From: a virus
Lineage: Duplodnaviria > Heunggongvirae > Uroviricota > Caudoviricetes
Strand: one strand, 5' to 3'
IMG/VR virus record: IMGVR_UViG_2690315992_000010
DNA length: 35,687 bases
Position 1 is the stretch's first letter, and each line of letters opens with the position of its first letter. A program made the translations under genes and the position numbers. The notes under the pieces are model-generated. The model was given only the letters and a program-made list of their open reading frames with translations, ran no database searches and had not been told where the DNA came from. Shown one piece after another: positions 1 through 23,046 of this stretch.

Positions 1-273
1 ATGAACATCGGTAAAGCAATCATCAACTACGCAGCGCGTCGCAACATGGACATTACCTTGATTGGGGATGAGACCGTGGCGTTCTGGGAAGCGGATAACG
101 ATTGTGAATGGATGTTCTCCTACATGATTGGTAATGATGGTTTCCTCCACTTTAAAGGCAATGTGTATCTGCCGCAGGATATTAAAGAAGAATTACCAGC
201 GTGCATCGATACAGACAAGAAGCTGAAAGAAGTAATCAACTTTATCGCTAAAGAGTTTATCAGCAAGAAGTAA
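1..273 (+). CDS. hypothetical protein (begins at window edge, possibly 5'-partial)
   Basis: Open frame 1-273 ending TAA at 271-273, followed by stem-loop at 284-302. No domain recognised. Confidence 0.4.
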   Translation: MNIGKAIINYAARRNMDITLIGDETVAFWEADNDCEWMFSYMIGNDGFLHFKGNVYLPQDIKEELPACIDTDKKLKEVINFIAKEFISKK

Positions 274-283
274 TGTCTAATTT

Positions 284-302
284 GGCGGGTACTATTCCCG
301 CC
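284..302 (+). promoter_or_regulatory. intercistronic stem-loop, copy A of a repeated hairpin-plus-RBS module
   Basis: GGCGGG-tactatt-CCCGCC. The surrounding ~40 bp (TCTAATTTGG.GGGT...ATTCCC.CCG.TTT..AAA.GGA.AAT) recurs at 715-765 with compensatory stem changes. Confidence 0.4.
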
Positions 303-323
303 GATTTAAACGGAATACAGACA

Positions 324-710
324 ATGTTCAATATTATGACTCGTAAATTTGGTGAGATGACTTTCGAGAAAGCTGGTGTTGCTCGTACCGAAGAAGAAGC
401 AATGGCCTTAGTTCTGGTAGCACTGAGATCATCAACTGAGATTATCGACGCTGAATATGTAGCCGCAGAAGGTGAGATTAACGAGATTAAAGCGGTGGCT
501 AAGGAATTAGGTGTTAAAGGTTTCCGTAAGCTGAGACTATCCCGCGAGTCATATGTAATTGGTAAGCAAGGACAATACCTAGATGAGAATACCGTGATTA
601 TTCTACTGAATAAGATCACCCGCTACGGTTGGAAGATTGAGCAATATAAAACATGTTTCGAATTATACGAAAAAGGTTTGCTGGATACTCTGACCATCGT
701 TCGCGCTTAA
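324..710 (+). CDS. hypothetical protein
   Basis: ORF track gives 273-710. ATG 324 preferred because 273-323 overlaps the stem-loop and the paralogous module at 725-766 places the start codon after the hairpin. Stop TAA 708-710. No domain recognised. Confidence 0.4.
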   Translation: MFNIMTRKFGEMTFEKAGVARTEEEAMALVLVALRSSTEIIDAEYVAAEGEINEIKAVAKELGVKGFRKLRLSRESYVIGKQGQYLDENTVIILLNKITRYGWKIEQYKTCFELYEKGLLDTLTIVRA

Positions 711-724
711 TTAATTTCTAATTT

Positions 725-750
725 GGTGGGTGTAATTCCCACCGCTTTTT
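725..750 (+). terminator. intrinsic terminator-like hairpin, copy B of the module
   Basis: GGTGGG-tgtaatt-CCCACC followed by GCTTTTT, then GGAGAA RBS and ATG at 767. Confidence 0.5.
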
Positions 751-766
751 AAATGGAGAATCAAAC

Positions 767-847
767 ATGTTAGCTTTTATCTCATTCGTGGGAGGTAGTC
801 TCACAACCATGATTAGTCTTTCTTATATTGTCGTTAGTATGGGGTGA
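767..847 (+). CDS. small hydrophobic peptide, 26 aa (MLAFISFVGGSLTTMISLSYIVVSMG)
   Basis: GGAGAA RBS 8 nt upstream of ATG; not in ORF track (too short); hydrophobic composition. Confidence 0.2.
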   Translation: MLAFISFVGGSLTTMISLSYIVVSMG

Positions 848-850
848 GCA

Positions 851-973
851 ATGAAACAATTTCATGATGGCATTTCATCTAAGACATTCAAGAAAGAATA
901 TTCGCTGTGTATTAACTGGATTGATTTGATTGGTGCGGTTGTGTTTGGTCTGATTATTAGCATTAACTTTTAA
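851..973 (+). CDS. small membrane peptide, 40 aa with hydrophobic C-terminal segment (IDLIGAVVFGLIISI)
   Basis: ATG 851 preceded by GGGGTGAG; stop TAA 971-973; not in ORF track. Confidence 0.25.
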   Translation: MKQFHDGISSKTFKKEYSLCINWIDLIGAVVFGLIISINF

Positions 974-1018
974 TGATATAAATATATCGTAATTCAAACA
1001 ACAAGAGGAAATTCTACT

Positions 1019-1432
1019 ATGAAAAAGATTATCGCTGGTGTTGTTCTTGCTCTGGGTTTGGTTGGTGCTGCAAATGCTAATACCTATTATGTGTGTAATT
1101 CCTACTTCGAACATAAAGGAGATGATACACAATATCTTCGTGATGGCGACCGTTATTATCATGCACCGTCTGGAAAATATCGTGGTTTTATCGGTGTGAA
1201 AGTTCGCGTGAATGATGATAATAGTCAATTTGCTTTCAACGATCCGGTATATGATAAGACAATCAAAAGCCCTAAATTGAAAGAAGATAAGAACGAGAAA
1301 GAAGAATATTATGGTTCCGAAGATGGTAAATCCTACATCAAGTATCTGCATTCTGTTGATGGCGCGCCTATATTTGATGTTAAAAAAGGTGATACGTCTT
1401 ATTCCCTGATTAGCTGCCGTGAAATTCTTTAA
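1019..1432 (+). CDS. secreted/periplasmic protein of unknown function (Sec signal peptide)
   Basis: Strong RBS AGAGGAAA before ATG 1019. N-terminus MKKIIAGVVLALGLVGAANA is a canonical signal peptide with AxA cleavage motif. Two Cys (positions 26 and 134) could form a disulfide. Confidence 0.6.
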   Translation: MKKIIAGVVLALGLVGAANANTYYVCNSYFEHKGDDTQYLRDGDRYYHAPSGKYRGFIGVKVRVNDDNSQFAFNDPVYDKTIKSPKLKEDKNEKEEYYGSEDGKSYIKYLHSVDGAPIFDVKKGDTSYSLISCREIL

Positions 1433-1446
1433 TCTTTAATCACCTA

Positions 1447-1486
1447 GCCCCTATCGTTATAATACGCGGTAGGGGCGTTTTTGTTT
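1447..1486 (+). terminator. hairpin with T-tract between secreted-protein gene and recombinase gene
   Basis: GCCCCTA...TAGGGGC stem around a TTATAATA centre, followed by GTTTTTGTTT. Could be a terminator/attenuator or a recombinase-associated palindrome. Confidence 0.4.
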
Positions 1487-1495
1487 GGAAATGGT

Positions 1496-3175
1496 ATGAA
1501 AACTAAACTGTATTCGTATATTCGTTTCTCGTCTATGCGTCAGAATGATGGTTCGAGTTATGAACGACAAATCAGGATGGCTAGAGAGATTGCGGTAAAG
1601 TATGACCTTGAACTGGTAAATGATTATCAGGATCTGGGTGTATCTGCGTTTAAGGGTGCTAACTCCAAAACAGGGGCGCTATCTCGTTTCCTTGATGCAA
1701 TAGGTAGATCCGTTCCTGTTGGTAGCTGGCTATTCATCGAAAACTTGGACCGTTTATCCCGTGCCGATATTGTCAGTGCGCAGGAGTTATTCCTTTCAAT
1801 CATCCGTAGGGGGATAACCATTGTTACTGGCATGGATAACAAGATCTACTCGCTGGATACTGTTACCGCTAACCCGATGGACCTGATGTTCTCCATCCTT
1901 TTATTCATCCGTGGTAATGAGGAAAGCCAGACTAAGCGCAATCGTACTAACTCAAGCGCACTGATTAAGATTAAAGCTCATCAAGAAAATCCACAAAATC
2001 CGGCTGTTGCAATCGAGGAAATTGGAAAGAATATGTGGTGGACTGATACCACATCTGGTTATGTGCTTCCTCATCCGGTCTTCTTCCCTATTGTTCAGGA
2101 AGTTGTGGAATTACGCAGGAATGGACGGTCAACCGCCGAGATACTGGATCACCTTAACGCGACATACACACCACCACCAGCCGCAAGTCACAAGAGGCAT
2201 TCAAACTGGTCACGGGCAATGATTGAAAGGTTGTTCCATACCCGCGCTTTGATTGGTATCAAGGAAATCTCTGTAGATGGCGTTAAGTATGAGTTAAAGG
2301 ATTATTATCCTCGTGTGCTAGATGACGCTGAGTTTTATCACCTTAAGAAAAGCATTGGTGTTAGAGCATGTAACTTTGGAGACAAAGAAGAAGTTAAACC
2401 TATTCCCTTGCTTAGTGGTGTTGGTCTATTGAAATGTGAACATTGCGGTTCCGCTATGGTTAAGGTGAAAGGAACAAACAGACGGCCTAACCAATATCGT
2501 TATTCATGCGATGCAATGCGCTCTAGTCGTATTGAATGTGTGCATACAAACTGGAGTTTTCGCGGCGACCAATTAGAGAAAGCTGTATTGCAATTGCTGG
2601 CTGATAAAATCTGGATTGCTGAAGATAAGGCTAATCCGGTTCCGGCTTTGAAAGTACAGATTGATGAAATATCACGCAAGATTGATAACCTGATTACCCT
2701 TTCTGCTATGACAGGAGCAACGAAGGAGCTAGCCGATCAGATTACTACCCTCAATAGCGAGCGTGAAACACTCTACAATCAAATTAAGATGGCAGAAGAG
2801 GAAATGTATTCTGTTGACTCTCAAGGCTGGGAGAAGCTCGCAGAATTTGATTTAGAAGATGTTTACAACGAGGATCGCATTAAGGTCCGGTTTAAGATTA
2901 AGCAAGCTCTAAAACGGATCGGGTGTAGCAGGATTGACAAGTACAAAAACTTGTTTGTACTGGAATACATCGATGGCAAGACCCAGAGAGTTGTAATAGA
3001 AAATTCAAGAGGACCGAGGAAAGGCCGGATCTTCGTTGATTTGAAGACTATCAATGATAGGCAGATTCTGGAGAGTAACGGGCTTGTTCTGCATCCATGT
3101 TTAGACATGCTGACAGATAAGAACTGGAAACCAGAAGAAGAAATACCAGGTCCATTACAGGAATTTGGAATTTAA
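1496..3175 (+). CDS. large serine recombinase (putative serine integrase)
   Basis: N-terminal resolvase-type catalytic domain (YIRFSSMRQ...SYERQ, GVSAFKG, ENLDRLSRA), then recombinase domain, Cys-rich zinc-ribbon (CEHCGS...YRYSCD...CVH) and coiled-coil; 559 aa from ATG 1496. Track start 1481 is TTG; ATG 1496 is in frame. Confidence 0.8.
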   Translation: MKTKLYSYIRFSSMRQNDGSSYERQIRMAREIAVKYDLELVNDYQDLGVSAFKGANSKTGALSRFLDAIGRSVPVGSWLFIENLDRLSRADIVSAQELFLSIIRRGITIVTGMDNKIYSLDTVTANPMDLMFSILLFIRGNEESQTKRNRTNSSALIKIKAHQENPQNPAVAIEEIGKNMWWTDTTSGYVLPHPVFFPIVQEVVELRRNGRSTAEILDHLNATYTPPPAASHKRHSNWSRAMIERLFHTRALIGIKEISVDGVKYELKDYYPRVLDDAEFYHLKKSIGVRACNFGDKEEVKPIPLLSGVGLLKCEHCGSAMVKVKGTNRRPNQYRYSCDAMRSSRIECVHTNWSFRGDQLEKAVLQLLADKIWIAEDKANPVPALKVQIDEISRKIDNLITLSAMTGATKELADQITTLNSERETLYNQIKMAEEEMYSVDSQGWEKLAEFDLEDVYNEDRIKVRFKIKQALKRIGCSRIDKYKNLFVLEYIDGKTQRVVIENSRGPRKGRIFVDLKTINDRQILESNGLVLHPCLDMLTDKNWKPEEEIPGPLQEFGI

Positions 3176-15803: not shown

Positions 15804-18800
15804 TCATTTACAGGATTTAATAGCCGCAAGTTCAGCTTTAACAGCTTTCAACTCTTCGTTCATCGCATCATACTTAGTCGTTAATTCCTGAAAGGCTTTC
15901 ACGAAAAGAGCATTGATACTAGAAACAGAAATAGTTTTAATTTCTCCTGGATTTTCGGTATCTCCATCGCTGCAAACGTGCACAGCTTCCGGCATAACTT
16001 TTTCCACATCTTGAGCAATGACACCTAATTCGCGTCCAACCACTGTATCATCAGAAAGTGATTTAACTTTATCGTAGGAATATACGGTTAAGCTGTTTAA
16101 TTTATCCAGCGCACCTTCTTCCAATTCTTCCTTGTTGATCTTAAGACGTTCATCAGATCGAATATGCACATCGTTAAAGCTACCGTTACCCGGCGTGTAA
16201 AAGAACCCATCGTGATGGAACTCAAATACAGCTTGAGGGTGTCCGTTATCAGGTGAGTTTTCCGCAGATCCAACACGAATAATTGCTTGTCCCCAATTGT
16301 TAGGGATACGACGCATACCAAAATCGACGGCAGTTGTATACCCTTGATTGGTGATTAAACTTCTTGCTTTAACAATCGGATAATAACAGTCTTGTCCAAC
16401 ATAGCCATGATCGACGAATATTGGCGCTTCCACTCGCCACTGATTACCCCAATCACCTGGTTGACTAGCGGTCCAACGTTCACCATGAACATATAATCGA
16501 GCGTTATTAACATGAACCATTTCGACGCCTTTTGGACTTAATGCAATATCCCCAGCGTTCGTAAGATTTATCGCGGCATTAGTAGCATAGCTATAGAACG
16601 CTAATCCATTATCACCACCGCCTTTACCAATATACCAGTTGTTGTTGTCAGCACACGTACCCAACAAATATACAGACGAATCACCACTTTCGGCATTCAT
16701 GATAATTGCATCAGATCCACGATTAATTTTCATTTTCCCGAAGAAGGTGTTTTTGGTAGTATTATCCCATAGACGTTCAAATTCGGCTAAAAATCCTTTT
16801 GAGTCACGAAGACTTAAAACGTTATTTCGACCTGTATTGCTTGCACCCCAATGGACGAGTTCCATATAGTCCATAGATTGACGAGAACCAGCTTTAAAGA
16901 ACAGGTTGTCTTCGAGACGAGTGCTACCATCAATTCCGAGATGCAAACAACGAGCGGTTGCAGTACCACCTAAATACAATCCACCGTCCGCAAAATCATA
17001 GCTGAATGGTCTGCGATTATTCCAACTACCAAAAGAATCTTTTAAATCGGTAGTAAGAATATGGAAGCTAGAACCATCATTGCGTAACATCAAACCATAG
17101 TTACCACCTTTGACAGCCAAACGAGCATTTTCAGATAATGCAACTTCGCTATTCATTACAATTTTCTGGCCTTTACCACCAGTAATATGCAACTCGCCAT
17201 CTTCAATCAGGTTTATCGAGTTTTGGCCGTTATCGTTCCACCAAATAAAATCTTTGGTCGTCAAATCACCAAAACCAAACCAGCCATTACGAACATCTTG
17301 ACCAGTGCGATAATCCATAAAATTAAAATGGCTTGATTCGTTTGGTCCTCGACGAATGTCAATACCGGCATTACCAACACCGCCATCCAATGTTAATCTC
17401 TTGACATGTAACCCGGTTGCAGCCGAAAGCAATAATTGTTGGTTTACATCGTCATAACCAGTAGCAAGACGATAATTTTGGTCATCAACACTTTCGTGCC
17501 AGATAGTGGCAGGAGCAGAACTACGGAAGCGACGCAACATCTTTTTGCTGTTAGTTTGTTGTTCGTTCATATGCTCAATGTCATATTGGCCTTGATGGTT
17601 TCCAGCAAAATTTAACGTCCCACGGTTGCTAACGTTATTGAACGATGAAATGTTAAGAGCATCAAAAATTTCATCTGCAACAGGTTTTTCACCACCCAGA
17701 TATTCAGGAGTATCCAACAGGTTTAAAGAAACACCACCGGAAGAAACTTGATATTCTGCTAAAACAAATCCTGTATGTGCACCGTAGTAAGCGTAAAGAT
17801 CGTAATTATCACCATCGGTAGGAATTGCACAAAAATGTTGTTCGTGATACCAGATGCTATAATAAGCATTGAATACAACACCTTTCGGGCTATTGTTGCC
17901 GCATCGAATCACCAATTCGATAATATTGGCTTGTCCATTCATCCCGACGTTATAACCGTTACCACCAACTAAGCGGATCTTAGCACTACGACCGTGTTGC
18001 TGTGGCAGTGTTAAACTACCGAGTTTAAACCAACCACCCTCGATCCCAAAATTAAGCGTCTTCTGGAACAGTCGGTCAATTTCTGCTTTCGAATATGCGC
18101 CAATTTCAGCCGGAGTAGGTTTATCGCCTTCATGATACATGCGGTGAGAATATGACAAATTACCTAATTCATCATAGCCGTATGTTCTTACAGTAGCATG
18201 TGGATTAGACCCATAAGTGAACTCAAAGCCACGAGCATGATTAACACCAGATGGATGCGGAACATGCAAGATCATTGCAATATGACCCGCCAGGTCATTC
18301 ATGCGGAATGCACCAAAGTAATCAAGATTACGCGCATTTGGATCATCAAAATAGTTTGCGGTCTTAGACAGCAAATAACCATCAGTATAAGTGTTTACGT
18401 GTTTTTTGATGTACTTGCCATCAGCAGATCCATCGGCTGCATCAATACGGCTTTCTAAGCGTGCCAATTCAGAATCAGTGTAAACCTTGTTGTTGTCAAT
18501 TTTGCTATGAATTGCTGTATTTTTGGCTTCAACATCACGGGTTAATGCTGCGACGCTATCCGCTGCCTCTTGCTTATTAGCTGCAATCACACCAGTAAGG
18601 TTATTGTAGGTGTCAGTTAACTGATTTTCCGCATAGGCTTGATTTGCTGCGATAGTGCGGTCAGTTTCTGCCTTAATCAAATCAACTTTGTCATTGATTG
18701 CTTTGTGATTGCTTGCGATGGTTGCATCAGTACGGGATTTAATATCATCAACTTTTTTATTGATGCGGGTGTCCAGTTCCTGAGTTGCTACAGCAGCCGC

Positions 18801-19229
18801 ATTTTTATTAGCGTTGATGGTATCCGACAATTCAGCTTTAACACCAGCAAGATCGGAAGCAGCTTTATTTTTATTGGCCTCGATTGTCGCGTCGGTTTCG
18901 CGTTTAATTACATCAACTTTATTGTTAATTTCTGCGTGATTTGCTGCGATGGTTGCATCAGTAGTTTGTTTAATTTCATCTACTTTAGCGTGAATATTGC
19001 GGTCGTTTGCTGCAATTGTGCTATCTAATTCTTTCTTGTTAGCATCAACTTTAGATTCTAGTGCCGCGTGAGTTTCAGGAGAAACAGAGATTTGAACTAC
19101 TTCATGATCTCGGTCTTTGGTAAAAATAACATGGTCTTTAAGGTTGATTGCTACCTCACCGACCTGTAATTGTTCCGGCGTTGGTTTTTTGCCAGAAACA
19201 TTAGTTCGTTTAAATTGGATTGATTGCAT
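15804..19229 (-). CDS. long (side) tail fibre with C-terminal intramolecular chaperone / S74 autoproteolytic domain
   Basis: 1141 aa; N-terminal ~33-aa repeat units (DxTIAAN...KVDxIKxxTD); C-terminus ...GRELGVIAQDVEKVMPEAVHV...TISVSSINALFVKAFQEL matches the chaperone domain of endosialidase/L-shaped-fibre type proteins. Confidence 0.8.
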   Translation of the reverse strand: MQSIQFKRTNVSGKKPTPEQLQVGEVAINLKDHVIFTKDRDHEVVQISVSPETHAALESKVDANKKELDSTIAANDRNIHAKVDEIKQTTDATIAANHAEINNKVDVIKRETDATIEANKNKAASDLAGVKAELSDTINANKNAAAVATQELDTRINKKVDDIKSRTDATIASNHKAINDKVDLIKAETDRTIAANQAYAENQLTDTYNNLTGVIAANKQEAADSVAALTRDVEAKNTAIHSKIDNNKVYTDSELARLESRIDAADGSADGKYIKKHVNTYTDGYLLSKTANYFDDPNARNLDYFGAFRMNDLAGHIAMILHVPHPSGVNHARGFEFTYGSNPHATVRTYGYDELGNLSYSHRMYHEGDKPTPAEIGAYSKAEIDRLFQKTLNFGIEGGWFKLGSLTLPQQHGRSAKIRLVGGNGYNVGMNGQANIIELVIRCGNNSPKGVVFNAYYSIWYHEQHFCAIPTDGDNYDLYAYYGAHTGFVLAEYQVSSGGVSLNLLDTPEYLGGEKPVADEIFDALNISSFNNVSNRGTLNFAGNHQGQYDIEHMNEQQTNSKKMLRRFRSSAPATIWHESVDDQNYRLATGYDDVNQQLLLSAATGLHVKRLTLDGGVGNAGIDIRRGPNESSHFNFMDYRTGQDVRNGWFGFGDLTTKDFIWWNDNGQNSINLIEDGELHITGGKGQKIVMNSEVALSENARLAVKGGNYGLMLRNDGSSFHILTTDLKDSFGSWNNRRPFSYDFADGGLYLGGTATARCLHLGIDGSTRLEDNLFFKAGSRQSMDYMELVHWGASNTGRNNVLSLRDSKGFLAEFERLWDNTTKNTFFGKMKINRGSDAIIMNAESGDSSVYLLGTCADNNNWYIGKGGGDNGLAFYSYATNAAINLTNAGDIALSPKGVEMVHVNNARLYVHGERWTASQPGDWGNQWRVEAPIFVDHGYVGQDCYYPIVKARSLITNQGYTTAVDFGMRRIPNNWGQAIIRVGSAENSPDNGHPQAVFEFHHDGFFYTPGNGSFNDVHIRSDERLKINKEELEEGALDKLNSLTVYSYDKVKSLSDDTVVGRELGVIAQDVEKVMPEAVHVCSDGDTENPGEIKTISVSSINALFVKAFQELTTKYDAMNEELKAVKAELAAIKSCK

Positions 19230-19302
19230 CTAATCACCTCACTATAAAACAGGAATAAGGGAGGCGTTAACCTCCCGCGTCATGTTTTATTTAGAGAAGC
19301 AA

Positions 19303-20136
19303 TCAGTATTCCCCGAAGTCGATCCGGTCATGGATAGAAACGGCTTCAATCTCGGCTGGTGTCGGTTTTTCTTCTGTGGAATACACTTTCACCCATCCCG
19401 AATTACCGTCTTTCTGGACTGTGCGAACTCGTAAACGTGGTGCGCCGGAAGCGGTGCAAGTTAATTGCCATCCACCATCTTCATTAGGTTGAGCGTGAAT
19501 TAGTGAAGTATCAGCACTAAATGGATTAGATGCGCTCGATCCCTGATAGGTCACAAAACGGTTTCCGGTTAATGCTTCGCTATCAATCGGACCAGTGAAT
19601 GGATTTACACCAGCACCCAGACCAAAATCACCCTGACGTAAGATCCGACCTTCGGTTGCAATACCACGATCCAGAATCCCGCCATCAGGTTCTAATTTAA
19701 ACTCGATTGTAGTAACTTTGTTATCGCCGGATTTTGTTTTATGTGACGAGACGAAAGCGTCAAAGATGACGTAGTAACCTGTGTTAGCAGCACTGTAACC
19801 AGAGTTCACAACATAGAACATACGAAAGCGTAAAGGAGTTTTATCATTCACCGCTTTCATCAACATGTCTTGATGTTCGTCATCCAGAACACGGTTTACT
19901 ACTAACGTAGTTGATTCAAGTTTACGATAACCAGAAAGTTTCCCCGTAGCGTCCTGGTCATACTCTTCTAACGTCTGTATCTCTGTAGATTCGGTTATCG
20001 TCGGGAATGCTGCGATGTTCTCGATAGGACTAAATGCAGGATCGAAAAAGTCCGGCTGGTTATCGACCATAGTAGAAACGGAGACTTCAACATGCGACCC
20101 CGTGAAAATGTCTAAGTTATCTTGTGTAATATTCAT
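19303..20136 (-). CDS. virion structural protein (neck/tail; possible tube-like fold with extra C-terminal domain)
   Basis: 277 aa; position between head-tail connector genes and fibre gene; moderate codon bias; shares KPTPAEI motif with the fibre protein. Function uncertain. Confidence 0.35.
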   Translation of the reverse strand: MNITQDNLDIFTGSHVEVSVSTMVDNQPDFFDPAFSPIENIAAFPTITESTEIQTLEEYDQDATGKLSGYRKLESTTLVVNRVLDDEHQDMLMKAVNDKTPLRFRMFYVVNSGYSAANTGYYVIFDAFVSSHKTKSGDNKVTTIEFKLEPDGGILDRGIATEGRILRQGDFGLGAGVNPFTGPIDSEALTGNRFVTYQGSSASNPFSADTSLIHAQPNEDGGWQLTCTASGAPRLRVRTVQKDGNSGWVKVYSTEEKPTPAEIEAVSIHDRIDFGEY

Positions 20137-21036: not shown

Positions 21037-23046
21037 TCATTCAGAGATATGAAGAACTTTCAGAGCTTCCGGCTGGGTTACAACGTAATCCAGATCTACC
21101 CAGATACGCGGAACAATTGCGGACTGTGCACGGTAGGTGGTGTCGTCCATATCCAGTTCCAGACCGCCCCACTCACCGATAGTAATACCGGAGAAGTCAC
21201 CCAGAACGATGTGGTCTGCCGGAATAACACCAGAAGTAACTACTTCGTAACCAGCAATTTTGCCGTTTTCCAGAATGAAGCCTTGAGCGTCACCACGATC
21301 AGATTTCGGGGTAGATTCCAGTTCAGCAGCAGTTGCACCGCTCATTGCAAACTTGATCGCCTGAGCAGGAACGCCAGCGTCGGTCAGTTTAGCAATTTCT
21401 TTCAGGAAGTCTTTGTAGGTGAAAGCAGCTTTCTTCTCAACGCGGCTAGCGTCTACCAGTTGTTTAACCAGACCAGCCGGACCACGATCGTTAGCTTTAT
21501 CAGACAGAATCAGTTGTTCCAGTTTGATACGAACAGCCTGGTTGATGTGATCAGTGATCAGGGTAGCGATACCCGGAACGGTTTTAATGCTCTGACGGCT
21601 GATCGGGTTGCCACCAGCAAAAGTCTTAGGAGACAGTTTCACGTTTGCAAATTCAGCTTTGCCTTCCGGTGCAGCACCGTTTTCATCAACGAAGCCGAAA
21701 GCGTCAACGCTGGATTTAGTCATTTTTGGAATAGCGGTCGGAGCAGTCAAGCCACTGTAAACAGTCACACCCAGACGACCCAGAACGGATTCCGGCATCA
21801 GCATTTCGATGTAGGATTCAGTCATCAGTTTTTCATCGGTGATAGCAGTCAGGTCAGCTTTGGTGTTACCAGCAGCAGCAGCACGCATAGCAGCAGCCGG
21901 AACGAATACAGAGCCACCACGAGCAGCACGACCACGCTGCATAGTTGCAGTAGCAGCCATTGCAGAAAACTCGGCTTCGTTAGCACCCAGAGCTTCACCA
22001 TCTACCAGAGAGCGAATTACGTTGTTCAGGTCAAAAGTTTTTTCCATTTTAGAGTCCTTAATTTGTTGTTCGTTATTACGTTGAGCATTGACGAGATTAT
22101 TTAGTGCCTTAGTGCGGAATGCTTCCGGCGTCATGTCTTTAATTGCCAATGCGCGTTTTAATTCTTCGTCGTCAATATTTAGTTCCCGCGCGATCTCGCG
22201 GATTTCTAATTCGTCTTCTTCGGAACGTTCAGCCACTTCCTCGGTTTTTTCTTCTTCAACCGGAACGGCTTCACGTTCTTCTTTTACTTCTTCTGTTTCC
22301 CGAACAGTTGAACTATCATCATCAACACTTTCAGGATGTTCAGCGTCTTTTCCGTCTTCGAGATTTTCATCTTCTTTATTCTCTTCAACTTGGCGCTCTT
22401 GAGTTTCTTCAACTTCCGATTCTTTATTTTCTTCTACCGGAGTTTCTTCAACCTGAGCGGGTTCTTGTTCTTCTTTGATTTCTTCGATTTGTTCTTTAGT
22501 CATATCGCGTTTAGCCTCCAAATTAACTGTGATAGTATTTAGAGAGCGATTTAAACCGACCGAATCGTCCGCCGGGACCGTAACAAAACTTAATTCGAAA
22601 GGAACAAACTTAGTAACAATCAATTGTCCTTTGGCATAATCGATGTGATATTCTTTAATGTCATAACCGACAGAAATTTTTTCCATCGTACCTTCAATGA
22701 CTTTATTACGAATATCATTAGCCAAAGTGCCATGCTTAGAGAATCTAACGGTCGCACGGCCTACTTTATCCGCATCGATTCGAGCGTTACAAACGACACC
22801 TAAATGATTATCGAAATTATGATTAAACAGCAACGGAGCGTTATTATTCAGACGAGACAGATCAACCGCTTCCGGTGTATGTACCAGAATTTCATCTAAT
22901 ACCACCATTTCTTGATTTTGCTCATCCCAGAATTGGCGCTGATAAGGCTGTTCACTGGAGAAAGCAATTTCAAATTCGTATTGATCGTTATGCCCTTCGT
23001 TAATAACTCCACCGTAACCGTTAAGTTCGCGGCGAAATTTAAGCAT
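21037..23046 (-). CDS. prohead protease - acidic scaffold-like linker - major capsid protein (single in-frame ORF)
   Basis: N-terminal ~170 aa has prohead serine protease-like motifs (LLFNHNFDNHLGVV, ISVGYD, FELSFVTVPADD); ~150-aa Glu/Lys-rich linker; C-terminal ~336 aa strongly codon-optimised capsid-like domain. Internal ATG near 22047 with AAGGA RBS. Confidence 0.75.
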   Translation of the reverse strand: MLKFRRELNGYGGVINEGHNDQYEFEIAFSSEQPYQRQFWDEQNQEMVVLDEILVHTPEAVDLSRLNNNAPLLFNHNFDNHLGVVCNARIDADKVGRATVRFSKHGTLANDIRNKVIEGTMEKISVGYDIKEYHIDYAKGQLIVTKFVPFELSFVTVPADDSVGLNRSLNTITVNLEAKRDMTKEQIEEIKEEQEPAQVEETPVEENKESEVEETQERQVEENKEDENLEDGKDAEHPESVDDDSSTVRETEEVKEEREAVPVEEEKTEEVAERSEEDELEIREIARELNIDDEELKRALAIKDMTPEAFRTKALNNLVNAQRNNEQQIKDSKMEKTFDLNNVIRSLVDGEALGANEAEFSAMAATATMQRGRAARGGSVFVPAAAMRAAAAGNTKADLTAITDEKLMTESYIEMLMPESVLGRLGVTVYSGLTAPTAIPKMTKSSVDAFGFVDENGAAPEGKAEFANVKLSPKTFAGGNPISRQSIKTVPGIATLITDHINQAVRIKLEQLILSDKANDRGPAGLVKQLVDASRVEKKAAFTYKDFLKEIAKLTDAGVPAQAIKFAMSGATAAELESTPKSDRGDAQGFILENGKIAGYEVVTSGVIPADHIVLGDFSGITIGEWGGLELDMDDTTYRAQSAIVPRIWVDLDYVVTQPEALKVLHISE

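What the first reader, a model, noticed from the sequence alone, without database searches (positions are those of the whole stretch)
15804..19229. Chaperone-domain tail fibre with internal tandem repeats, placed between neck and tail tube genes
In addition to the J-like central fibre, the phage encodes an 1141-aa fibre ending in an autoproteolytic intramolecular chaperone domain. Its N-terminal shaft has ~33-aa tandem repeats mirrored at DNA level (about 18640-19030), a substrate for length variation by recombination. The gene interrupts the usual connector-tube gene order and has its own downstream hairpin (about 15745-15770).
Basis: partly seen in the sequence, partly recalled or inferred. 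Interest (0 to 1): 0.5.

Follow-up and report, generated by a model that had tools for sequence, protein, structure and literature searches.

The report
Mosaic self-chaperoned prophage side tail fibre
This is an intact side tail-fibre gene of an E. coli prophage: a lineage-specific anchor and coiled-coil stalk fused to a receptor-binding half shared with T4-like phages and ending in a self-cleaving folding domain; it is an ordinary kind of gene, but it sits in a conserved swap slot beside an unusual tail-tube paralogue that probably holds it on the tail.

Summary
The 1141-aa ORF (15804-19229, minus strand) is real, intact and under purifying selection. It ends in a Peptidase_S74 intramolecular chaperone with the Ser1025/Lys1030 dyad; predicted cleavage is DVHIR^SDERLK. 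The repeats are real, but the unit is 22 aa (11-residue substructure), not 33. Units are only 36-74% identical at DNA level. Copy number is fixed in 28/28 complete E. coli genomes; one metagenomic allele (L028) has a clean 55-aa repeat-to-repeat deletion. The hairpin lies at 15777-15801, not 15745-15770.

The window is a ~35 kb E. coli prophage inserted in hicB. Fibre residues ~283-1024 are gp37-like, 82-87% nucleotide identical to Krischvirus long-tail-fibre genes over window 16056-18366. The tip is the type that docks a Gp38 adhesin, yet the window encodes none.

The gene does not interrupt a neck-tube order. It lies between two tail-tube paralogues. The upstream 277-aa protein has a tube-fold domain plus a fibre-like C-terminus ending in DFGEY. 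In 41/41 related loci such a protein is followed by an ORF starting with the same N-terminal anchor. I infer that it mounts the fibre. Relatives carry alternative receptor-binding cassettes in this slot.

The parts
15804..19229 (-). Side tail-fibre gene, 1141 aa plus stop codon
   Evidence: ORF. PHROG 1699 'long tail fiber distal subunit', E=8e-113. PGAP names the 99.4%-identical DEC5A gene 'tail fiber domain-containing protein'. dN/dS is 0.02-0.35 in all segments.
19065..19229 (-). N-terminal anchor domain, residues 1-55 (MQSIQFKRT...GKKPTPEQL..GEVAINL...)
   Evidence: 100% identical in six of the seven aligned alleles and 98% in the seventh. Retained in sister lineages and in Proteus and metagenomic relatives. 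The pattern opens the ORF after the tube paralogue in 41/41 loci.
18426..19064 (-). Alpha-helical stalk, residues 56-268; the 22-aa units are clearest at residues 60-224 (18558-19052)
   Evidence: Autocorrelation at 22, 44, 55, 77 and 99 aa. Direct DNA repeats with 66-nt spacing at 64-73% identity. Hydrophobic residues sit at fixed positions of an 11-residue frame. The Pfam Apolipoprotein match is below threshold and reflects 11/22-mer periodicity.
16158..18383 (-). gp37-like shaft and tip, residues 283-1024, shared with T4-like (Krischvirus) long tail fibre distal subunits
   Evidence: tblastn gives 77-78% aa identity to MIZ4 and KFS-EC gp37 over residues 283-1117. megablast gives 82.2-86.5% nt identity over window 16056-18366. 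Pfam Gp34_trimer at 644-744; gp37_trimer at 842-892 below cut-off. Per-bin identity profile.
15807..16157 (-). Intramolecular chaperone / Peptidase_S74 domain, residues 1025-1141. Nucleophile codon S1025 at 16155-16157; K1030 at 16140-16142. Predicted cleavage between R1024 and S1025.
   Evidence: Pfam PF13884, full-length match. Alignments to 6F45, 8JOV and MYRF 7DC3. The cleavage motif is conserved in 10 of 10 S74-type alleles compared.
15777..15801 (-). Hairpin directly after the stop codon (AAAUGGGGGG-aacaC-CCCCCAUUU). It has no clear U-tract. It marks the downstream end of the S74-only cassette.
   Evidence: dG -16.6, z -3.4. Present in window, EC416 and Z0117, with changed stem and loop bases in Z0117. 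Absent in cassettes that carry downstream adhesin ORFs. Conserved DNA resumes at about 15772.
19246..19289 (-). Conserved hairpin between the 277-aa gene and the fibre gene (core GGGAGG-uuaac-GCCUCCC at 19259-19276), followed by a U-rich stretch and the fibre's ribosome-binding site
   Evidence: dG -17.3, z -4.6. The core stem-loop (GGGAGGTTAACGCCTCCC) and the following stretch are invariant in 8 alleles, including a lineage only ~80% identical in flanking coding DNA; a few flanking positions of the interval vary.
19303..20136 (-). 277-aa tail-tube paralogue with a fibre-like C-terminal knob and a conserved C-terminal DFGEY. Proposed mounting protein for the fibre.
   Evidence: PHROG 158 'major tail protein'. 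Paralogue of the 156-aa protein, E=7e-8. AF2 with alignment gives pLDDT 72-91 in most 10-residue blocks of residues 11-160 (three blocks at 54-61). Foldseek top hits are the 80alpha and lambda gpV tube proteins, E~5e-8. Residues ~195-270 align to fibre residues 300-380 including KPTPAEI, E=8e-5. D273, F274 and G275 are invariant or nearly so in 28 homologues.
15245..15715 (-). 156-aa tail tube protein in the canonical position, directly upstream of the tail assembly chaperone genes
   Evidence: PHROG 158, E=2e-19; weak Pfam TTP_12 and TTP_11 matches. PGAP 'phage tail tube protein'. Followed by a strong terminator-like hairpin at 15217-15236.

Best explanation
The gene encodes a trimeric side (accessory) tail fibre of a temperate siphovirus-type E. 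coli prophage, built from four modules.

(1) A 55-residue N-terminal anchor. I infer that it plugs onto the C-terminal fibre-like stub, ending in ...IDFGEY, of the upstream 277-aa tail-tube paralogue. That paralogue would supply one or a few rings of the tail tube.

(2) A ~210-residue alpha-helical stalk made of diverged 22-residue (2 x 11) units. I infer that it forms a coiled coil.

(3) A ~740-residue shaft and tip homologous to the gp37 distal long-tail-fibre subunit of T4-like Krischvirus phages. Homology is shown; horizontal exchange is inferred.

(4) A 117-residue C-terminal intramolecular chaperone. By homology it drives trimer folding and then removes itself by Ser1025/Lys1030 autoproteolysis between R1024 and S1025, leaving a 1024-residue mature fibre.

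The fibre occupies a conserved slot bounded by conserved DNA and hairpins, in which related prophages carry alternative receptor-binding cassettes. This allele has the Gp38-docking type of tip but no Gp38. The exposed tip or the distal shaft therefore probably binds the receptor directly, assisting adsorption while the J-like central fibre carries out the irreversible step.
For: ORF and domains. Catalytic dyad and cleavage motif: with the S16 precedent from PMC7917993. gp37 homology. The Krischvirus gp37 N-terminus (about 68 aa) has no counterpart here; it is replaced by the anchor and stalk.

Functional gene: dN/dS is 0.02-0.35. It is intact in relatives; 62 of 5426 complete E. coli genomes carry the prophage family.

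Cassette slot. The same flanks hold: an S74 fibre alone (window, EC416); a fibre plus a 260-aa Gp38; a fibre plus three ~100-aa ORFs; a pyocin-knob S74 fibre; or a fibre with a 168-aa Gp38_N adhesin placed after the tube gene.

Mounting hypothesis. The 277-aa protein has the tube fold and is a paralogue of the tube protein. Its C-terminus is fibre-like. Longer homologues (482 and 698 aa) carry several KPTPAxxGA fibre segments and the same terminal motif. The Proteus prophage splits the fibre into a 198-aa piece (anchor, coil, ending MDFGTF) and a 675-aa piece that opens with a second anchor. In 41/41 intact loci a D[FL]Gx[FY]-ended tube paralogue is followed 42-82 nt later by an anchor-bearing ORF.

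No Gp38 in the window. Central fibre present.
Against: No virion, proteomic or structural data exist for this phage lineage. No cultured relative was found in the phage collection, and neither tube paralogue has a sequence relative in the PDB.

The anchor-to-DFG docking rests on gene adjacency and motif co-occurrence in about five independent lineages, not on a modelled or measured interface. The C-terminal half of the 277-aa model is low confidence (pLDDT 28-45 for residues 163-249).

The position of the paralogue ring along the tail is unknown. Fibre copy number is unknown, and a hexameric ring does not map simply onto trimeric fibres.

The tip is of the type that needs Gp38 in T2/S16-like phages, so direct receptor binding is an assumption.

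The downstream hairpin lacks a U-tract, so it may not terminate transcription.
Confidence: 0.6

Rival explanations
1. The fibre attaches somewhere else, for example to the distal tail protein, the hub or J at the tail tip, or through a collar formed by its own N-termini as in lambda Stf. The 277-aa protein is then just a decorated tube protein or the tail terminator, and its adjacency to the fibre gene is only operon organisation.
For: In the characterised E. coli siphoviruses, side fibres sit on collars at the tube-tip junction: the Ur-lambda Stf collar at gpV/gpM and the T5 p132 collar (PMC12617516). No tail terminator could be identified among the neck genes: the 96-aa protein looks like head closure and the 140-aa protein has no match, so the 277-aa protein could fill that role. 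C-terminal decorations on tube proteins, such as the gpV Ig domain, are common.
Against: The C-terminal extension is fibre-like rather than Ig-like. It grows by KPTPAxxGA fibre segments in homologues while keeping the terminal DFG motif. The same motif ends the 198-aa half-fibre of Proteus, directly before a second anchor-bearing protein. Pairing holds in 41/41 loci. No Stf-collar or p132-like domain was detected in the fibre or its neighbours.
Confidence: 0.25
2. The fibre is a neck or collar whisker. The 277-aa paralogue forms the head-proximal ring of the tube, so the fibres hang from just below the head rather than from the tail tip. This is a variant of the main explanation that differs only in location.
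For: Gene order usually follows physical order, and the pair lies between the head-closure genes and the tube gene. The tape measure of 809 aa predicts a tail of about 120 nm using the 0.15 nm per residue rule quoted in PMC9928086. A 1024-residue fibre could span much of that length (inference).
Against: Nothing positions the ring. Tube paralogues that form single rings in known phages sit at the tip end: lambda gpM and, from my own knowledge, T5 p140. The distal half is a receptor-binding long-tail-fibre module, which is most useful near the tip.
Confidence: 0.25
3. The allele is a decaying, adhesin-less remnant. The Gp38 gene was lost, and the fibre no longer recognises a receptor.
For: The tip sequence ...GNGSFNDVHIR^SD is nearly the same as in MIZ4 gp37 and ETEC4085, both of which have a Gp38 gene. 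No Gp38-like sequence exists in the window. The Tyr of the docking strand DVYIR is replaced by His or Gln only in the three adhesin-less alleles.
Against: The ORF is intact. The distal part and tip show dN/dS of 0.02-0.14 against EC416, ETEC4085 and MIZ4. The chaperone domain is a distinct 117-aa allele shared at 94% nt identity with the unrelated-shaft Z0117 fibre, which also lacks Gp38, so this is not a simple deletion derivative. The same adhesin-less arrangement recurs in IMG/VR loci L024, L027 and L029.
Confidence: 0.1
4. One reading: a recently inserted fibre gene that interrupts the connector-tube order and whose main adaptive feature is repeat-driven length variation.
For: The gene is bracketed by hairpins. 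One allele (L028) shows a repeat-to-repeat 55-aa deletion.
Against: The slot and its partner gene are conserved across genera. Stalk length is invariant in 28/28 complete genomes and in 11 of 12 IMG/VR alleles of the lineage. Repeat units are only 36-74% identical at DNA level. The real variation is at the distal, receptor-binding end.
Confidence: 0.08

Closest known systems
gp37 long-tail-fibre distal subunit of T2/S16-type T-even phages (here Krischvirus MIZ4 and KFS-EC), with a C-terminal intramolecular chaperone and a Gp38 adhesin
   Same: Residues 283-1117 are 77-78% identical in protein to MIZ4 and KFS-EC gp37, with 82.2-86.5% DNA identity over window 16056-18366. It has the Gp34_trimer domain (the gp37_trimer match is below cut-off), the same ...NDV(Y/H)IR^SDxRLK cleavage motif, and a C-terminal chaperone of 111-117 aa.
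   Different: The gp36-binding N-terminus of gp37 is replaced by a prophage-specific anchor and a ~210-aa helical stalk. The virus has a lambda/GTA-like non-contractile tail module, not a T4 baseplate. There are no gp34, gp35 or gp36 genes and no Gp38 adhesin. The last 90 residues of the chaperone are only 34-56% identical.
Phage T5 L-shaped tail fibre pb1 (siphovirus side fibre with an S74 intramolecular chaperone)
   Same: An accessory side fibre of an E. coli siphovirus, additional to the central fibre or receptor-binding protein. It matures by removal of a C-terminal S74 chaperone, after which the exposed tip binds the receptor without a separate adhesin. The pb1 biology is from my own knowledge of Garcia-Doval et al. 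2015.
   Different: T5 mounts three pb1 fibres on a separate dodecameric collar protein, p132 (PMC12617516). Here no collar gene is seen. The fibre gene follows a tube paralogue with a fibre-like C-terminus. No sequence similarity outside the S74 domain was detected.
Phage lambda side tail fibre Stf (with Tfa)
   Same: A side fibre of a temperate E. coli siphovirus whose distal part is related to T-even gp37. It speeds adsorption while J does the irreversible binding (PMC12617516).
   Different: Stf is encoded downstream of J. It forms its own 12-mer collar around the gpV/gpM junction and needs the separate Tfa chaperone. The fibre here is encoded upstream of the tube gene, has a different N-terminus and carries its chaperone in cis.
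Endosialidase-type intramolecular chaperone domains (phage K1F endoNF, GA-1 neck appendage, eukaryotic MYRF)
   Same: Full-length Pfam PF13884 match, the S-D-x-R-x-K motif, and a helical C-terminal tail (including a weak hit to MYRF 7DC3).
   Different: It is attached to a gp37-type fibre rather than a tailspike. No enzymatic domain was detected.

Membership tests
Peptidase_S74 / intramolecular chaperone (IMC) domain | Sequence match to the family profile above the curated threshold, at the extreme C-terminus of a fibre or spike | tested here: met
   PF13884: 53.9 bits against a cut-off of 22; residues 1025-1084 cover profile positions 1-58 of 58. The domain plus its helical tail make up the last 117 residues.
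Peptidase_S74 / intramolecular chaperone (IMC) domain | Catalytic Ser-Lys dyad in the motif S-D-x-R-x-K, with Ser as the first residue of the released domain | tested here: met
   S1025-D-E-R-L-K1030 aligns to SDRRIK of S16 gp37 (6F45) and SDERLK of 8JOV. The S16 cleavage site DLNVS^SDRRIKK is described in PMC7917993. The motif is conserved in 10/10 alleles.
Peptidase_S74 / intramolecular chaperone (IMC) domain | Autoproteolytic release after trimer folding | not testable with these tools
   Needs expression and SDS-PAGE or mass spectrometry of the wild type against S1025A and K1030A mutants.
T-even gp37 long-tail-fibre distal subunit | Homology across the shaft and tip domains | tested here: met
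   PHROG 1699 E=8e-113. Gp34_trimer E=5e-14; gp37_trimer is below cut-off (16.5 vs 21.7 bits). 77-78% aa identity to Krischvirus gp37 over residues 283-1117.
T-even gp37 long-tail-fibre distal subunit | N-terminal region that joins gp36 within a gp34-gp35-gp36-gp37 fibre on a contractile-tail baseplate | tested here: not met
   Homology to MIZ4 and KFS-EC gp37 starts only at about window residue 250-283. Residues 1-~250 are unrelated. No gp34, gp35 or gp36 genes are in the window. The tail module is lambda/GTA-like: tube, G/T chaperones, tape measure, Dit, hub, J.
T-even gp37 long-tail-fibre distal subunit | Partner Gp38 (adhesin or chaperone) encoded next to it | tested here: not met
   tblastn of five Gp38-type or downstream-ORF proteins against the window gave nothing better than E=0.19. 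Relatives in the same slot do carry Gp38_N or GP38 proteins.
Lambda Stf-type side tail fibre | N-terminal collar domain; gene downstream of J; separate Tfa assembly protein | tested here: not met
   No Stf or Tfa family hits in Pfam or PHROGs. The gene lies upstream of the tube gene. Stf features are from PMC12617516.
Siphovirus tail tube protein fold (for the 277-aa neighbour) | Tube-protein fold and sequence relationship to a tube protein | tested here: met
   The AF2 model made with a 28-sequence alignment gives pLDDT 72-91 in most 10-residue blocks of residues 11-160. Foldseek hits the 80alpha and lambda gpV tube proteins at E 5e-8 to 1e-6. BLASTP to the 156-aa tube protein gives E=7e-8. 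PHROG 158 match.
Siphovirus tail tube protein fold (for the 277-aa neighbour) | Forms rings in the tail and carries the fibre | not testable with these tools
   Inferred from synteny and motif pairing only. Needs virion structure or interaction data.

The most novel reading that the evidence does not exclude
This prophage lineage mounts its side fibres in a way not described for any solved siphovirus. A dedicated tail-tube paralogue extends a short fibre-like stub ending in a conserved DFGx(F/Y) tail. That tail acts as a universal socket for a ~55-residue N-terminal plug. Because fibre pieces can themselves end in the socket motif (Proteus 198-aa followed by 675-aa proteins), fibres can be chained. 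The distal end is a free-exchange slot that trades gp37, Gp38 and chaperone cassettes with virulent T4-like phages. That would make these prophages a standing reservoir of host-range modules.
Probability: 0.35. Interest if true: 0.6.

Novelty: new variant of a known kind. Interest (0 to 1): 0.4.

Why it matters
The fibre itself is a familiar object: a self-chaperoned, mosaic receptor-binding protein. Two things would matter if confirmed.

First, a tube-protein paralogue acting as the fibre mount, with a short conserved plug-and-socket pair, would add a third way of attaching side fibres to non-contractile tails, beside the lambda Stf collar and the T5 p132 collar. It would also give a compact, transferable docking pair for engineering phage host range.

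Second, the slot shows that temperate E. coli prophages and virulent T4-like phages share receptor-binding cassettes at 82-87% DNA identity. At least five cassette types occur in one position. This is a natural experiment for studying how host range is reshuffled. It includes an allele with the Gp38-docking type of tip that does without Gp38.

Tried and rejected
- Tandem Repeats Finder found no array at the 66-nt period because the copies are too diverged. The repeats had to be shown by autocorrelation.
- The AF2 model of the 277-aa protein without an alignment was useless (pLDDT 33). It was repeated with a 28-sequence alignment.
- NCBIfam gave no hits for the fibre or its neighbours.
- Rfam gave no family for either hairpin.
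- The PDB sequence search found nothing related to either tube paralogue.
- The scan of one genome per species found no homologue of the 277-aa protein. IMG/VR gave 45 loci.
- A database search with the N-terminal 289 aa returned only 15 sequences, mostly partial. The repeat-number test was therefore done by DNA search and on IMG/VR loci instead.
- The literature search for a prophage in hicB found no characterised relative. The LF82 paper's hicB is on a phage-plasmid.
- Locus H159 is an IS1-degraded remnant and uninformative.
- My first anchor regex was too strict and wrongly scored most loci as negative. It was corrected.
That segment does not fold better than shuffled sequence.
- I considered a Gp38 gene elsewhere in the window and rejected it.

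Full report
**What is there.** The window carries a single long ORF at 15804..19229 on the minus strand, 1141 aa, exactly as reported. It matches tail-fibre families strongly: PHROG 1699 'long tail fiber protein distal subunit', E=8e-113. Pfam finds Peptidase_S74 at residues 1025-1084 and Gp34_trimer at 644-744, plus a gp37_trimer match at 842-892 that is below the cut-off.

The window as a whole is a prophage. Its first 25 kb are 98.1% identical to a region of E. coli O55:H7 DEC5A that lies between two fragments of hicB about 35.3 kb apart, beside a large serine recombinase gene. 62 of 5426 complete E. coli genomes carry relatives. Read along the minus strand, the structural module is:
- terminase, a head-tail joining protein and a lambda-family portal;
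- a protease-capsid fusion;
- a 96-aa head-closure protein and a 140-aa protein with no match;
- the 277-aa protein, the fibre and the 156-aa tube protein;
- G/T-like chaperones and an 809-aa tape measure;
- the distal tail protein, the hub and a NUMOD3 protein;
- a DUF6950 protein and a 1248-aa J-like tip protein.

No cultured phage in the phage collection is close. The best capsid match is 43.5% in protein.

**The chaperone domain.** The Pfam profile is matched end to end, starting exactly at S1025. S1025-D-E-R-L-K1030 aligns with SDRRIK of Salmonella phage S16 gp37 (PDB 6F45) and SDERLK of 8JOV. For S16 the literature states that the last 113 residues are an intramolecular chaperone. It is autocleaved at DLNVS^SDRRIKK after trimerisation, which exposes the Gp38 docking surface. 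T2-like phages have DVYIR^SDGRLKI at that position (PMC7917993). The window has DVHIR^SDERLKI, so cleavage is predicted between R1024 and S1025, releasing 117 residues. The motif is conserved in all ten S74-type alleles I compared.

**The repeats.** They are real. Protein autocorrelation over residues 51-270 peaks at shifts of 22, 44, 55, 77 and 99 residues, all multiples of 11. Scores are 0.85-1.22 per site at 22, 77 and 99, against a maximum of 0.30 in 300 shuffles. The 33-residue shift scores 0.24, within the null range. The unit is KVDxIKxxTDATIAANxxxINx, 22 aa or 66 nt. An extra 11-residue segment at 148-158 produces a 77-aa higher-order duplication. Hydrophobic residues recur at fixed positions of the 11-residue frame. 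That fits a 3-4-4 hendecad pattern and suggests a helical coiled-coil stalk; this is inference. The sub-threshold Apolipoprotein match reflects the same periodicity.

At DNA level the units are only 36-74% identical, and the longest shared exact run is 19 nt. Tandem Repeats Finder sees nothing at this period.

- The DNA for residues 1-270 matches 28 complete E. coli genomes at 88-98.6% identity. Each match is a single ungapped piece of exactly the query length. Seven extracted alleles align without gaps over residues 1-~205.
- Among the IMG/VR loci of the same lineage, the stalk span could be measured in 12. It is 225 aa in 11 of them. L028 has 170 aa.
- The L028 difference is a clean in-frame deletion of residues 104-158 (55 aa, 5 x 11). 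It joins unit K104 to unit K159 within the shared AAAGTTGATG.
- A sister lineage has two stalk classes, 202 and 230 aa. They differ by several indels, and that stalk has its own periodicity.

Repeat-mediated length change does happen, but it is rare. The stalk is under purifying selection, with dN/dS of 0.10-0.34. It is not the variable part of the protein.

**The fibre is a mosaic.** Against the phage collection, only window 15981-18366, inside the fibre gene, finds near matches. These are 78-87% identical in DNA to gp37 genes of T4-like coliphages. The best are Krischvirus MIZ4 (82.2% over 2.3 kb) and KFS-EC (86.5% over 1.6 kb). In protein, residues 283-1117 are 77-78% identical to these gp37 proteins, and 86-100% in most 50-residue bins between 601 and 900.

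The first ~68 residues of gp37 have no counterpart in the window. Window residues 1-~250 have no counterpart in gp37.

Within the prophage family:
- residues 1-~205 are nearly invariant;
- the distal part diverges sharply between alleles;
- the last ~290 residues of the window allele (tip plus chaperone) are 84-96% identical to the Z0117 allele, whose shaft is a different 'pyocin knob' type sharing only 12-20% identity over most of its length.

There are therefore at least three exchange junctions.

**The slot.** The fibre gene lies between conserved flanks.
- Upstream: the intergenic region holds a hairpin with core GGGAGG-uuaac-GCCUCCC at 19259-19276 (dG -17.3, z -4.6). The core stem-loop is invariant in eight alleles, including a lineage only ~80% identical in neighbouring coding DNA.
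- Downstream: conserved sequence resumes at about 15772, just after a hairpin at 15777-15801 (dG -16.6, z -3.4). That hairpin travels with the S74-only cassettes (window, EC416, Z0117, the last with altered stem and loop bases). It is missing from cassettes that carry extra ORFs.
- The real hairpin has no U-tract after it, so it may stabilise the RNA or attenuate transcription rather than terminate it.

Between these flanks, relatives carry:
- an 1141-1144-aa S74 fibre alone;
- an 1139-aa fibre plus a 260-aa true Gp38 adhesin (Gp38_N and GP38 domains);
- 1136-1230-aa fibres plus three paralogous ~100-aa ORFs of unknown family;
- an 1153-aa pyocin-knob S74 fibre;
- in the sister lineage, 1091-1207-aa fibres, several of them (8 of the loci examined) with a 168-aa Gp38_N adhesin gene placed after the tube gene.

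**No adhesin in this allele.** The window's tip (...FEFHHDGFFYTPGNGSFNDVHIR^) is almost the same as in MIZ4 gp37 and ETEC4085, both of which have Gp38. Yet no Gp38-like sequence exists anywhere in the window: tblastn gives nothing better than E=0.19. In the three adhesin-less alleles the Tyr of the docking strand DVYIR is His or Gln. All seven alleles with downstream adhesin-like ORFs keep Tyr. The sample is small and the alleles are not all independent.

The distal part and tip are under strong purifying selection (dN/dS 0.02-0.14), and the chaperone is a distinct 117-aa allele rather than a deletion product. I therefore favour direct receptor binding by the matured tip or distal shaft, as in T5 pb1 (own knowledge), over decay.

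**The neighbours.** The gene is not between neck and tube genes. Both flanking genes match PHROG 158 'major tail protein' and are paralogues of each other (E=7e-8). With a 28-sequence alignment, AF2 models the N-terminal domain of the 277-aa protein at pLDDT 72-91 in most 10-residue blocks of residues 11-160. Its best structural matches are siphovirus tube proteins: 80alpha and lambda gpV, E 5e-8 to 1e-6. The 156-aa protein sits directly before the G/T chaperones and is followed by a strong terminator-like hairpin. I take it to be the major tube protein.

The C-terminal part of the 277-aa protein is modelled poorly, but its sequence is fibre-like. Residues ~195-270 align to fibre residues 300-380 including KPTPAEI (E=8e-5). 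The last residues, D273-F274-G275, are invariant or nearly so across homologues down to 38% identity. Longer homologues (482 aa in a metagenomic phage, 698 aa in the DCP80 record) extend this part with several KPTPAxxGA fibre segments and keep the terminal motif...IDLGTF and ...IDFGLE.

In a Proteus mirabilis prophage the fibre is split. A 198-aa protein has the anchor and coiled coil and ends in ...MDFGTF. It is followed by a 675-aa protein that begins with a second copy of the anchor domain.

Across 41 of 41 loci with an intact pair, a D[FL]Gx[FY]-ended tube paralogue is followed 42-82 nt later by an ORF that opens with the anchor pattern. These loci represent about five independent lineages.

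From this I infer, but have not shown, that the anchor domain docks on the DFG-ended stub. On that reading the 277-aa paralogue is the fibre's mount in the tail tube.

**Comparison with known systems.** In Ur-lambda the Stf N-termini form a 12-mer collar at the gpV/gpM junction, and gpM itself has the tube fold. T5-like phages use a separate collar protein, p132 (PMC12617516). The arrangement proposed here would be a third solution. Where the ring sits (tip end or head end) and how many fibres it carries cannot be decided from sequence.

**Verdict.** The object is a genuine, functional side tail-fibre gene of a known general kind, with an intact self-cleaving chaperone. It is wrong on the repeat period, the hairpin position and the gene-order reading. 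It missed the main features: the T4-like distal module, the cassette slot, the missing adhesin and the tube-paralogue partner. Mosaic fibres shared between T-even and temperate phages are long known, so interest is moderate. The possible new mounting mechanism is the part worth following up.

Noticed in passing
window 19286-19294, 15767-15775 and 15193-15201 (all minus strand): The 9-mer CTAAATAAA occurs in three consecutive intergenic regions of the tail operon, each about 35-55 nt upstream of a start codon (fibre, tube protein, chaperone). There are 4 copies in the window against 0.8 expected. It may be a lineage-specific regulatory or processing signal.
   Followed up: partly
window 19246-19289 (minus strand): The hairpin between the 277-aa gene and the fibre gene has a core stem-loop that is invariant in eight alleles, including ones only ~80% identical in flanking coding DNA. 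It is followed by a U-rich stretch. It may be an attenuator that sets the ratio of mount protein to fibre.
   Followed up: partly
window 9930-10703 (minus strand): A 257-aa protein with four NUMOD3 motifs lies between the hub gene and the DUF6950 gene in the tail-tip module. The gene is absent at this position in relatives L019, L014 and L016. It is probably a homing-endonuclease-type insertion.
   Followed up: partly
L004 1271-2177 and L005 1271-2177; L009 5098-5421: Three tandem paralogous ~100-aa ORFs (MGYWV...IPNGW...) follow the fibre gene in the commonest cassette type. They are related to the 107-aa ORF downstream of gp37 in Krischvirus KFS-EC. They have no Pfam or PHROG family. They may be a new small adhesin or assembly-factor family for gp37-type tips.
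   Followed up: partly
L011 1406-1912, L013 1566-2072: In the sister prophage lineage a 168-aa adhesin with a Gp38_N docking domain is encoded after the tube-protein gene. The tube gene therefore sits inside the fibre-adhesin gene pair.
   Followed up: partly
window residue 1022 of the fibre (codon 16164-16166): The Tyr of the Gp38-docking strand DVYIR is His (window, EC416) or Gln (Z0117) only in alleles that lack any downstream adhesin ORF. All seven alleles with such ORFs keep Tyr.
   Followed up: partly
L018 (PQ671644.1, 1-22 kb): The record 'Escherichia phage DCP80' (141 kb, classified as a T4-like Gaprivervirus) begins with a complete siphovirus-type head and tail module related to this prophage. 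This suggests a chimeric assembly or a co-packaged contaminant.
   Followed up: no
window 21037-23046 (minus strand): The major capsid protein is a 669-aa fusion of a prohead protease-like N-terminus, an acidic linker and the capsid domain. The Proteus homologue carries Peptidase_S78 plus Phage_capsid.
   Followed up: no
window 1-3175 and L001 11845-11964 / 47256-47564: The prophage splits the antitoxin gene hicB of the hicAB toxin-antitoxin locus and carries a 564-aa serine recombinase at one end. Insertion should leave hicA without an intact antitoxin gene.
   Followed up: no
L028 (IMGVR_UViG_2778260996_000020): This natural fibre allele has a 55-aa in-frame deletion of stalk residues 104-158, made through 10-nt microhomology between repeat units. 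It is the only stalk-length variant found in the window's lineage.
   Followed up: yes
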